Below are positions 11,065 to 11,349 of a DNA stretch of 25,739 nt, one piece after another. How positions within the stretch are numbered: position 1 is the first letter of the stretch; every line of letters begins with the position of its first letter. The DNA comes from a virus (lineage: Duplodnaviria > Heunggongvirae > Uroviricota > Caudoviricetes), in the IMG/VR virus record IMGVR_UViG_2675903417_000004; one strand, given 5' to 3'. The notes under the pieces were generated by a model. It saw only the letters and a program-made list of their open reading frames with translations, was not told the origin of the DNA and made no database searches. Made by a program: the position numbers and the translations under genes.

Positions 11065-11349
11065 CTAACTTACCTGAACCAGGCCGTCTCCGGACGCTAC
11101 GGTAGATCCGCATGAAACAGGGTCACCAACGCATACGATCCCTTTACCATTGACGGTAAACCATGCCCTGGTTGATATAGCTTGCCCACCGTGCGTACTG
11201 TTTCCATCGGTATGCTGTGCATATTGCTTACCATCAACTAACACTTCGACTCCGTTGACTTTAAGTAGTGGTTCACTCTCTACAGGAGGCCTGGATGGGA
11301 ATCCTCCGTGCCCCGAACAAATGCTGTCTTTTGTTGCAATACTTGCCAC
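11065..11349 (-). CDS. upfC: PAAR-like spike-tip protein (94 aa, GTG start)
   Basis: ICSGHGGFP, VNGVEVLVDG, THGG and VNGKGIVCVGDPVSCGS resemble the repeated Cys/His-Gly motifs of PAAR / PAAR-like proteins. Confidence 0.5.
   Translation of the reverse strand: MASIATKDSICSGHGGFPSRPPVESEPLLKVNGVEVLVDGKQYAQHTDGNSTHGGQAISTRAWFTVNGKGIVCVGDPVSCGSTVASGDGLVQVS

What the first reader, a model, noticed from the sequence alone, without database searches (positions are those of the whole stretch)
11065..11349. PAAR-like protein encoded in the replicon-proximal upf operon, far from the baseplate spike
The 94-aa product carries PAAR-like Cys/His-Gly motifs typical of proteins that cap a gpV/VgrG spike, and a gpV-like spike candidate is encoded about 9 kb away at 20118-20750. 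Here the PAAR-like gene sits in an operon with a lipoprotein and exported proteins next to oriR, not in a late structural operon. Either the spike tip is expressed from an unusual location or the protein has a non-virion, envelope-associated role.
Basis: partly seen in the sequence, partly recalled or inferred. Interest (0 to 1): 0.55.

Follow-up and report, generated by a model that had tools for sequence, protein, structure and literature searches.

The report
Phage P1 spike-tip protein UpfC
This 94-residue gene is UpfC of a P1-type phage-plasmid, the already characterised PAAR-type cap that sits on the tail spike. Its position next to the plasmid origin is an accident of genome layout, not a sign of a new function.

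Summary
The ORF at 11065-11349 (minus strand, GTG start, 94 aa) is real. It is UpfC of a P1-like phage-plasmid, 93/94 identical to PDB chain 9vyi_A ('UpfC', phage P1 baseplate). It is a PAAR-repeat protein. The AlphaFold model (pLDDT 96.8) matches 9vyi (TM 0.97), T4 gp5.4 (0.86) and T6SS PAAR proteins (0.89-0.91). His14, His46, His53 and Cys80 are invariant in 24 homologues.

The non-virion alternative is not supported. The 'lipoprotein and exported proteins' are the Rz/Rz1-type spanin pair ppfA/mlp. The next gene, upfB, has been proposed as a 'tripod' attached to the tip. Published P1vir RNA-seq gives the whole upfC-upfA unit late-gene kinetics. In a Salmonella relative, upfC-upfB-spanin lies directly upstream of genes 23-22-21 with no replicon between, behind a perfect P1-type late promoter.

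In this window only a degenerate late box (9/11) occupies the same position, so the promoter remains unproven. Verdict: already known, low interest.

The parts
11065..11349 (-). upfC: 94-aa PAAR-repeat spike-tip protein (T4 gp5.4 equivalent)
   Evidence: 93/94 identical to PDB 9vyi_A 'UpfC'. PAAR profile hits. AF2 model pLDDT 96.8; Foldseek TM 0.97 to 9vyi, 0.86 to 4ku0_D, 0.89 to 4jiv_D and 0.91 to 4jiw_D. H14, H46, H53 and C80 are invariant.
11382..11400 (-). Candidate degenerate Lpa-type late promoter (AAACAACCT-gagt-TAAAAT), with 32 nt between the -10 hexamer and the GTG start. Inferred, not shown.
   Evidence: It scores 9/11 against the consensus AARTNACTW-N4-TANNNT, which I derived from LP23, LP26, LPpmgL, LPsit and LPs. 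The shuffle probability of such a match at this spacing is 0.012. The same position carries an 11/11 box in L010, 10/11 in L014 and 9/11 in L013. By score alone it cannot be told apart from about 20 other 9/11 hits in the window.
10268..11056 (-). upfB: 262 aa, all-alpha protein, proposed in the literature as the trimeric 'tripod' anchored on the spike tip. Its ATG lies 8 nt after the upfC stop, behind GGAG.
   Evidence: PHROG 1559 aligns 1-262 to 1-263 of 263. Homologues are 255-262 aa. PMC12810830 assigns it as the tripod from a medium-resolution map plus an AlphaFold3 model. It always follows upfC in relatives. It has no PDB fold match.
9806..10228 (-). ppfA: Rz-like inner-membrane spanin
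   Evidence: PHROG 89 'Rz-like spanin' E=2e-24. Several P1-like records annotate this locus as Rz.
9640..9972 (-). mlp: Rz1-like outer-membrane lipoprotein spanin, overlapping ppfA; lipobox LSGC
   Evidence: PHROG 30284 'Rz-like spanin' E=8.6e-78. The translation contains FLLTLSGCSG.
9236..9628 (-). upfA: last gene of the unit, function unknown
   Evidence: PHROG 1453, unknown function. P1 annotation. Late kinetics.
9202..9222 (-). Intrinsic-terminator-like hairpin with a T-run, ending the upfC-upfA unit before oriR
   Evidence: 9-pair stem with 5 G-C pairs, followed by TTTTCACTT.
20118..20750 (-). Gene 5: trimeric central spike (OB domain plus beta-helix, no lysozyme domain, no C-terminal HxH apex motif). 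This is the structural partner of UpfC.
   Evidence: PDB 9vzk_q 'Gp5' E=1.6e-136. PHROG 430 E=1.3e-51. Pfam Phage_base_V E=1.1e-4. The translation shows no HxH motif.
20743..21759 (-). Gene 6: baseplate hub that carries the gp5 spike
   Evidence: PHROG 1390 E=2.2e-159. Described as the hub in PMC12810830 and PMC9024508.

Best explanation
The gene is upfC of a P1-type phage-plasmid and encodes the virion spike-tip protein. One UpfC monomer folds into a small conical beta-structure made of three PAAR-type repeats. A buried tetrahedral metal site (His14, His46, His53, Cys80) holds it together. The cone's base, which has local three-fold symmetry, caps the flat end of the trimeric gp5 beta-helix and sharpens the tail's membrane-piercing needle. 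gp5 is encoded 8.8 kb away at 20118-20750.

upfC is the first gene of a late-expressed unit, upfC-upfB-ppfA/mlp-upfA. That unit also encodes a proposed tip-attached 'tripod' (UpfB) and the spanin lysis pair.

Its closeness to oriR/repA is a matter of layout. In P1-type genomes the plasmid maintenance module lies between two late blocks: this unit and genes 23-22-21.

Shown: identity, fold, conserved metal ligands and synteny (here); position on the virion, dispensability for plaque formation and late kinetics (literature).

Inferred: the sharpening role during outer-membrane penetration (by analogy with T4 gp5.4) and the late promoter that drives the unit.
For: - Identity: the region is 96-99% identical in nucleotides to P1 and P1-like phages. 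The protein is 93/94 identical to PDB 9vyi_A 'UpfC'.
- Family: PAAR profile hits; phmmer E~1e-7 to T4 gp5.4 and 3.7e-4 to VCA0105.
- Fold: pLDDT 96.8; TM 0.97 to the P1 baseplate structure, 0.86 to gp5.4, and 0.89-0.91 to T6SS PAAR proteins.
- Metal site: H14, H46, H53 and C80 are invariant in 24 homologues spanning 40-84% identity. T4 gp5.4 uses three His and one Cys, and its H14A mutant no longer binds gp5 (PMC12407873).
- Partner: gp5 is identified and lacks the HxH apex motif of self-tipped spikes.
- Location on the virion: cryo-EM shows monomeric UpfC on trimeric gp5 (PMC12810830; bioRxiv 10.1101/2025.07.21.665459).
- Expression: logFC from 10 to 30 min is 4.86 to 10.63 for upfC, 4.12 to 11.07 for upfB, 5.57 to 11.25 for ppfA, 4.15 to 10.53 for mlp and 5.21 to 11.24 for upfA. 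This resembles gene 5 (4.23 to 9.90), 22 (4.68 to 11.45) and 23 (5.44 to 12.07). It differs from repA (7.37 to 10.16), parA (9.46 to 11.46) and uhr (8.62 to 11.06) (PMC8201110 Table S1).
- Synteny: upfC-upfB-spanin is conserved in every P1-like relative sampled. In L010 it abuts genes 23-22-21, with a perfect late-promoter box 32 nt before upfC.
Against: - UpfC was not detected by LC-MS/MS of P1 virions. One copy per virion is the explanation the authors offer (PMC9024508).
- In the bioRxiv study the spike model was an AlphaFold prediction superimposed on the map without refinement.
- Deleting upfC or knocking it down by CRISPRi gives no plaque defect, so no phenotype yet demonstrates the sharpening role in P1.
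- The Pfam score is 0.6 bit below the gathering threshold.
- The P1 record annotates no late promoter here. The candidate box is only 9/11 and differs between P1 and this window.
Confidence: 0.95

Rival explanations
1. UpfC has a non-virion, envelope-associated role in the lysogen or during lysis, working with the lipoprotein and membrane protein encoded in the same unit.
For: The gene is co-transcribed with the envelope proteins ppfA and mlp. UpfC was not detected in the virion proteome. The gene is dispensable for plaque formation.
Against: The solved P1 baseplate structure contains UpfC on the gp5 tip. UpfC has no signal peptide or lipobox (sequence). ppfA/mlp are spanins with a well-defined lysis role that needs no PAAR protein. 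Expression is silent early and strong late, like structural genes. A 43%-identical homologue sits between a gpV-like spike gene and gpW/gp25 in a conventional baseplate cluster.
Confidence: 0.02
2. UpfC is a moron-type T6SS accessory. On this reading the PAAR protein is supplied by the prophage to cap or load the host's VgrG spike. This is what the PHROG category ('moron, auxiliary metabolic gene and host takeover') and some source names ('Zn-binding protein involved in type VI secretion') imply.
For: NCBIfam T6SS_PAAR_dom aligns along the full length. The fold is nearly the same as VCA0105 and c1882. The PHROG category is, and the JGI names are.
Against: The score of 36.3 bits is far below the 124-bit equivalog cut-off. 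The protein has no effector extension, being only 94 aa. The window contains no T6SS genes. The closest solved relatives are phage tip proteins. Expression is late-lytic. The protein is found on the phage spike.
Confidence: 0.02
3. The ORF is a chance reading frame or an annotation artefact.
For: It is short (94 aa), starts with GTG, and overlaps the originally annotated upfB by 49 nt.
Against: There are 71 homologues with conserved length and invariant ligand residues. The structure prediction is confident. A solved structure of the protein exists.
Confidence: 0.005

Closest known systems
Phage P1 UpfC (PDB 9vyi chain A; PMC12810830, PMC9024508)
   Same: This is the same protein: 93/94 identical (Ser86 here, Ala in the deposited chain). 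The gene order upfC-upfB-ppfA/mlp-upfA-oriR-repA is the same, and so is the divergent uhr-hrdC-dmt unit with the C1 operator Odmt.
   Different: One residue differs. The surrounding window differs from reference P1 in cargo: dmt is shorter, and a 275-aa lipoprotein-family gene replaces tciABC.
Phage T4 gp5.4 spike tip (PDB 4ku0_D, 5iv5_ZA)
   Same: It has the same size (97 aa), the same PAAR fold (TM 0.86) and the same three-His-one-Cys metal site, with His14 aligned. It is a monomer capping a trimeric gp5 beta-helix and is non-essential for plaque formation.
   Different: Identity is only about 28-31%. T4 gene 5.4 lies next to gene 5, whereas P1 upfC is 8.8 kb from gene 5. T4 gp5 carries a lysozyme domain and P1 gp5 does not. 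P1 additionally has UpfB proposed to attach to the tip.
T6SS PAAR-repeat proteins (VCA0105, PDB 4jiv_D; E. coli c1882, PDB 4jiw_D; Pfam PF05488; NCBIfam NF033420)
   Same: The conical fold (TM 0.89-0.91), the conserved metal ligands and the role as a cap on a trimeric beta-helical spike are shared.
   Different: Identity is 16-23%. The score is below the T6SS equivalog cut-off (36.3 against 124 bits). UpfC belongs to a phage tail rather than a secretion system, and it carries no effector domain.
Self-tipped spikes: P2 gpV and phi92 gp138 apex domain
   Same: They serve the same function, giving the central spike a sharp tip stabilised by a metal ion.
   Different: In those phages the tip is fused to the spike and binds Fe through three HxH motifs. 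P1 gp5 has no HxH motif and uses a separate PAAR protein.
PAAR gene in a P2-like baseplate cluster (loci L002, L003; protein P0115)
   Same: It is 43% identical to UpfC, 94 aa long, and hits PF05488.
   Different: It is encoded in the conventional place, between a Phage_base_V spike gene and gpW/gp25-gpJ-gpI. No upfB or spanin gene follows it.

Membership tests
PAAR-repeat superfamily (Pfam PF05488) | Significant match to the family profile | tested here: met
   PF05488 E=8.5e-6. PHROG 281 'PAAR motif' E=2e-30. NCBIfam NF033420 E=4.5e-9 along the full length. 23 of 24 homologues match PF05488, best E=2.4e-21.
PAAR-repeat superfamily (Pfam PF05488) | Score at or above Pfam's curated gathering threshold for this exact sequence | tested here: not met
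   26.4 bits against a cut-off of 27, a shortfall of 0.6 bit. Most close homologues carry a precomputed PF05488 assignment. I treat this as a threshold effect, not as evidence against homology.
PAAR-repeat superfamily (Pfam PF05488) | Small conical beta-structure with pseudo-three-fold symmetry | tested here: met
   The AF2 model has pLDDT 96.8 and is all-beta. Foldseek TM is 0.89 to 4jiv_D, 0.91 to 4jiw_D, 0.86 to 4ku0_D and 0.97 to 9vyi. The next non-PAAR hit has E>0.1.
PAAR-repeat superfamily (Pfam PF05488) | Tetrahedral metal site formed by three His and one Cys near the apex | tested here: met
   H14, H46, H53 and C80 are invariant in 24 homologues. H14 aligns with His14 of T4 gp5.4, whose H14A mutant fails to bind gp5. 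This test covers ligand conservation only. Metal binding itself was not tested.
PAAR-repeat superfamily (Pfam PF05488) | Binds as a monomer to the blunt end of a trimeric beta-helical spike | not testable with these tools
   This was not computed here, because no multimer prediction was available. Published cryo-EM places monomeric UpfC on trimeric gp5 (PMC12810830; PDB 9vyi and 9vzk).
Phage spike-tip proteins of the T4 gp5.4 type | The partner spike ends in a beta-helix without its own HxH apex domain | tested here: met
   gp5 (20118-20750) has an OB domain (Pfam Phage_base_V) and matches T4 gp5-type PHROG 430. Its C-terminus has no HxH motif (criterion).
Phage spike-tip proteins of the T4 gp5.4 type | Encoded next to the spike or baseplate genes | tested here: not met
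   upfC lies 8.8 kb from gene 5. uhr-hrdC-dmt, tRNAs, ban and dbn lie between them. The same split occurs in P1-like relatives. This is a typical feature of the family rather than a strictly defining one.
T6SS PAAR protein (NCBIfam NF033420, equivalog) | Score above the equivalog cut-off, and a T6SS gene context | tested here: not met
   36.3 bits against a cut-off of 124. The window contains phage and plasmid genes only.
P1 UpfC orthologue | Near-identity and conserved gene order with P1 upfC | tested here: met
   93/94 identical to 9vyi_A. 96.4% nucleotide identity to NC_005856 over 10000-12500, with the same flanking genes.
P1 late (Lpa-dependent) transcription units | A 9-bp inverted repeat at -22 followed, 4 nt later, by a TANNNT -10 hexamer upstream of the unit | tested here: inconclusive
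   The window has only a 9/11 match, at 11400..11382, 32 nt before the start. Its shuffle probability at that spacing is 0.012, but about 20 equal-scoring hits exist elsewhere in the window. Boxes at the same position in relatives score 11/11 (L010), 10/11 (L014) and 9/11 (L013). L012, L015, L004/L005 and L011 have none scoring 9 or more.
P1 late (Lpa-dependent) transcription units | Low transcript level early and high late in lytic growth | not testable with these tools
   Taken from published data. P1vir RNA-seq Table S1 shows logFC rising by 5.7-6.9 between 10 and 30 min for upfC to upfA. This resembles structural genes and differs from the rise of 2.0-2.8 for repA, parA/B, uhr, hrdC and dmt (PMC8201110).

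The most novel reading that the evidence does not exclude
The evidence does not exclude the following reading. The conserved upfC-upfB pair would be a phage counterpart of a T6SS PAAR protein with its cargo. The highly conserved tip (61-67% identity in relatives) would serve as the docking platform for a fast-evolving, all-alpha UpfB 'tripod' (26-41% identity, no known fold relatives). The tripod would adapt the needle to different cell envelopes. The unit would be driven in P1 by a twelfth late promoter, unannotated and degenerate, at 11382-11400. The tripod itself has already been proposed in the literature. The co-evolution reading and the promoter would be the new parts.
Probability: 0.35. 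Interest if true: 0.3.

Novelty: already known. Interest (0 to 1): 0.08.

Why it matters
For genome annotation, the result turns an 'unknown protein function' label, still present in the reference P1 record, into a defined structural role. It also shows that being next to a plasmid origin says nothing about function in P1-type genomes, where late genes are scattered over many units.

Spike-tip proteins are among the most conserved tail components and yet are dispensable in the laboratory. For T4, the tip matters for fitness and for infecting hosts with truncated LPS (PMC12407873). The same may hold for P1, a workhorse transducing phage and a widespread phage-plasmid that carries resistance genes.

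None of this is new. The remaining open points are modest: how the upfC unit is switched on late, and what UpfB does.

Tried and rejected
- **Literature search.** A search for 'UpfC' alone returned only power-engineering papers. Adding 'phage' found the relevant ones. The P1 genome paper (PMC523184) is not held, so I derived the late-promoter consensus from five annotated promoters in AF234172.
- **Late-promoter palindrome.** A search for AAGTNACTT with up to 1 mismatch found nothing upstream of upfC. The only exact hits are LP23 and an intragenic site at 941-949.
- **Sigma-70 scan.** It gave only a weak 9/12 site (TTAAAA-17-AATAAT, 11388..11360), which is no better than the shuffled expectation.
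- **226-aa ORF in Serratia.** I tested whether the ORF directly upstream of upfC in Serratia relatives is a displaced spike gene. It is not: there is no similarity to gp5 and no PHROG hit. The true gp5 homologue lies about 7 kb away.
- **UpfB.** I looked for a known fold or family. There is no Pfam or NCBIfam hit and no PDB sequence hit. Foldseek returned only generic helical bundles with TM of 0.32 or less.
- **Non-virion, T6SS-moron and chance-ORF readings.** I considered and rejected all three; see the rival explanations.
- **Read-through from LP26.** I considered read-through from LP26 across about 13 kb as the source of late transcripts and judged it unlikely. It would have to run antisense through dbn, ban and dmt. 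I did not test it.

Full report
**What is at the coordinates.** The window is a P1-type phage-plasmid. Positions 10000-12500 are 96-99% identical to phage P1 and its relatives. The gene order matches the annotated P1 genome AF234172: parB-parA-incA-repA-oriR, then upfA-mlp-ppfA-upfB-upfC, then the divergent uhr-hrdC-dmt unit. The ORF at 11065-11349 on the minus strand has a GTG start behind GGTGA and encodes 94 aa. It is upfC. Its product is 93/94 identical to PDB chain 9vyi_A, which is named 'UpfC' and comes from the cryo-EM structure of the P1 baseplate.

**Is it a PAAR protein?** Yes, on four lines of evidence.
- Profiles. Pfam PAAR_motif gives E=8.5e-6 at 26.4 bits, just under the gathering score of 27. 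PHROG 281 'PAAR motif' gives 2e-30. NCBIfam T6SS_PAAR_dom gives 4.5e-9 over residues 4-93, far below its equivalog cut-off. Of 24 homologues, 23 hit PF05488, with a best E of 2.4e-21.
- Solved relatives. phmmer against solved structures finds T4 gp5.4 (E~1e-7) and the Vibrio T6SS PAAR protein VCA0105 (3.7e-4).
- Fold. An AlphaFold2 model built on 24 homologues has pLDDT 96.8 and is all-beta. Foldseek places it on 9vyi (TM 0.97, rmsd 0.6 Å), T4 gp5.4 4ku0_D (0.86), a Klebsiella phage tip 9f4b_BA (0.93), VCA0105 (0.89) and E. coli c1882 (0.91). Apart from a weaker match to the phiKZ PAAR protein gp163.1 (6p1z_D, E=0.054), nothing else scores better than E=0.1.
- Metal ligands. His14, His46, His53 and Cys80 are invariant across homologues of 40-84% identity. 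T4 gp5.4 has a tetrahedral site of three His and one Cys, and its H14A mutant no longer binds gp5 (PMC12407873). His14 aligns with His14.

**The partner spike.** The gene at 20118-20750 (minus strand) is P1 gene 5. It matches PDB 9vzk_q 'Gp5' at E=1.6e-136, the T4 gp5-type PHROG 430 and the Pfam Phage_base_V OB domain at E=1.1e-4. Its C-terminus lacks the HxH motif of spikes that carry their own iron-binding apex. This fits a blunt beta-helix that needs a separate cap. Gene 6, directly upstream of gene 5, is the hub.

**What the literature already says.**
- The 2004 P1 annotation noted 31% identity between UpfC and T4 ORF 5.4 (note).
- Gonzales et al. 2022 (PMC9024508) assigned UpfC as the gp5.4-like spike tip by HHpred. 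They found no plaque defect in a deletion and did not detect the protein by LC-MS/MS, which they attributed to its single copy per virion.
- A genome-wide CRISPRi screen scored upfC, upfB, ppfA, mlp and upfA as non-essential (PMC10695390).
- Two cryo-EM studies place monomeric UpfC on the trimeric gp5 needle. One superimposed an AlphaFold model on the map (bioRxiv 10.1101/2025.07.21.665459). The other built atomic models in a 3.2 Å map (PMC12810830).
- The second study also proposes that UpfB forms three trimeric 'tripods' anchored on the tip. That proposal rests on a medium-resolution map fitted with an AlphaFold3 model.
- The T4 gp5.4 preprint notes that gp5.4/UpfC is the only tail protein pair that BLAST matches between T4 and P1.

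The finding is therefore already known.

- Neighbours. ppfA (9806-10228) and mlp (9640-9972, lipobox LSGC, overlapping ppfA) are an Rz/Rz1-type spanin pair (PHROG 89 at 2e-24 and PHROG 30284 at 8.6e-78). Several P1-like records annotate them this way. This is a late lysis function.
- upfB. upfB (10268-11056) follows upfC after 8 nt that contain GGAG.
- End of the unit. The unit ends at a hairpin with a T-run at 9222..9202, before oriR.
- Expression. Published P1vir RNA-seq (PMC8201110 Table S1) shows the five genes rising by 5.7-6.9 log units between 10 and 30 min; for example, upfC goes from 4.86 to 10.63. Structural genes behave the same way (gene 5 from 4.23 to 9.90, gene 22 from 4.68 to 11.45, gene 23 from 5.44 to 12.07). 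repA, parA/B, uhr, hrdC and dmt are already high at 10 min and rise by only 2.0-2.8. By kinetics, this is a late unit.

**Comparative context.** upfC is followed by an upfB homologue in every P1-like relative I sampled, and in all but L011 a spanin-sized gene comes next (confirmed as Rz-like in L004 and L010; inferred from size and position in the others). These were Serratia (L004/L005), Salmonella (L010, L012) and metagenomic contigs (L011, L013, L014, L015). UpfC stays 54-67% identical in relatives where UpfB drops to 26-41%.
- In the Salmonella contig L010 the order is gp6-gp5-[83 aa]-hrdC-[254 aa]-dmt-like-[246 aa]-[124 aa]-upfC-upfB-spanin-23-22-21, all on one strand, with no replicon between the spanin and gene 23.
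- In P1, in this window and in the Serratia element, a Rep/par module occupies that junction.
- The P1 replicon therefore sits between two late blocks. The split of upfC from gene 5 by the hrdC-dmt segment is old in this lineage.
- A more distant homologue (43% identity) sits in the conventional place, between a gpV-like spike gene and gpW/gp25.

**Promoter.** The P1 record annotates no promoter for upfC. From LP23, LP26, LPpmgL, LPsit and LPs I derived the consensus AARTNACTW-N4-TANNNT.
- In the window, the only perfect matches are LP23 (5294..5276) and LP26 (24917..24899).
- Upstream of upfC the best match is 9/11 (AAACAACCT-gagt-TAAAAT, 11400..11382). About 20 other sites in the window score the same. 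P1 itself reads AAATAATCT at that place.
- The site lies 32 nt before the start codon. That is comparable to the 29-31 nt I calculated from the annotated coordinates of LP26, LPs and LPsit. The shuffle probability at this spacing is 0.012.
- L010 carries its only perfect box in 12.3 kb exactly there: AAGTAACTT-tcca-TACACT, 32 nt before upfC, shuffle probability 4e-5.
- L014 and L013 have 10/11 and 9/11 boxes 30-31 nt before the first gene of the same unit (probabilities 0.001 and 0.004).
- L012, L015, L004/L005 and L011 have none scoring 9 or more.
- I infer that the unit is late-promoter driven in this phage group and that the P1 copy is degenerate. This is not shown.

**UpfB.** The AlphaFold2 model is an all-alpha bundle (pLDDT 81) with a disordered Gly/Ser-rich linker. 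It has no meaningful PDB fold match, no family hit and no PDB sequence hit. Its constant linkage to upfC is consistent with the proposed physical association but does not prove it.

**Verdict.** Nothing here is new to specialists. The only loose ends are the unproven late promoter and the function of UpfB. Interest is low.

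Noticed in passing
window 11056-11113 (minus strand): The P1 reference annotates upfB as 281 aa, overlapping upfC by 49 nt. The PHROG 1559 profile (1-262 to 1-263 of 263) and homologue lengths (255-262 aa) favour the ATG at 11056. That start lies 8 nt after the upfC stop codon, behind GGAG, and gives 262 aa.
   Followed up: partly
window 9640-10228 (minus strand): ppfA and mlp, still labelled 'possible periplasmic function' and 'membrane lipoprotein precursor' in AF234172, are an overlapped Rz/Rz1-type spanin pair (PHROG 89 and 30284; lipobox LSGC in Mlp).
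   Followed up: partly
proteins P0053-P0063, P0076, P0086; PDB 9f4b_BA; JL22 record: UpfC and gp5.4 homologues are widely misnamed in public records. The wrong names include 'alanine racemase' in many NCBI entries, 'Phospholipase' for the tip chain of PDB 9f4b, and 'putative phospholipase' in phage JL22.
   Followed up: no
L010 5969-6000: A hairpin with a T-run (CCCACAG-N10-CTGTGGG-CTTTTTT) lies between the -10 hexamer of the perfect late promoter and the upfC start codon. A transcript starting about 7 nt after the -10 would lack most of the 5' arm. The hairpin could therefore stop read-through from upstream genes without stopping the late transcript.
   Followed up: no
L004/L010 compared with the window: UpfC is 61-67% identical in relatives where UpfB is only 26-41% identical. 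By comparison, gp5 is about 50% and gp23 46-56% identical. The tip is unusually conserved, while its proposed partner evolves fast.
   Followed up: partly
L004 7321-8001; L014 1097-1330; L013 2299-2523: Several relatives carry an extra small or medium ORF directly upstream of upfC, translationally coupled to it (226 aa, 77 aa and 74 aa). The 226-aa ORF in L004 has no PHROG hit, and the 77-aa ORF has a Pfam 'Sequestin' hit. P1 has no counterpart.
   Followed up: partly
window 941-949: An exact late-promoter palindrome (AAGTAACTT) lies inside pmgG, but it has no proper -10 hexamer at the right spacing (9/11 overall). It may be chance or a vestigial or internal late box.
   Followed up: no
window 12698-14716 and 16508-17335: The cargo differs from reference P1. 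The dmt ORF is 672 aa here, against 754 aa in AF234172. A 275-aa lipoprotein-family gene (PHROG 200) occupies the place of tciA/B/C, upstream of the tRNA with a CAT anticodon at 17363-17438.
   Followed up: no
window 10248-10266 (minus strand): A 9/11 late-box-like site (AAAGGACTT-catt-GATAAT, preceded by AAC as in true late promoters) sits in the short upfB-ppfA spacer, just upstream of the spanin genes. Its score is at chance level and I did not examine it further.
   Followed up: no
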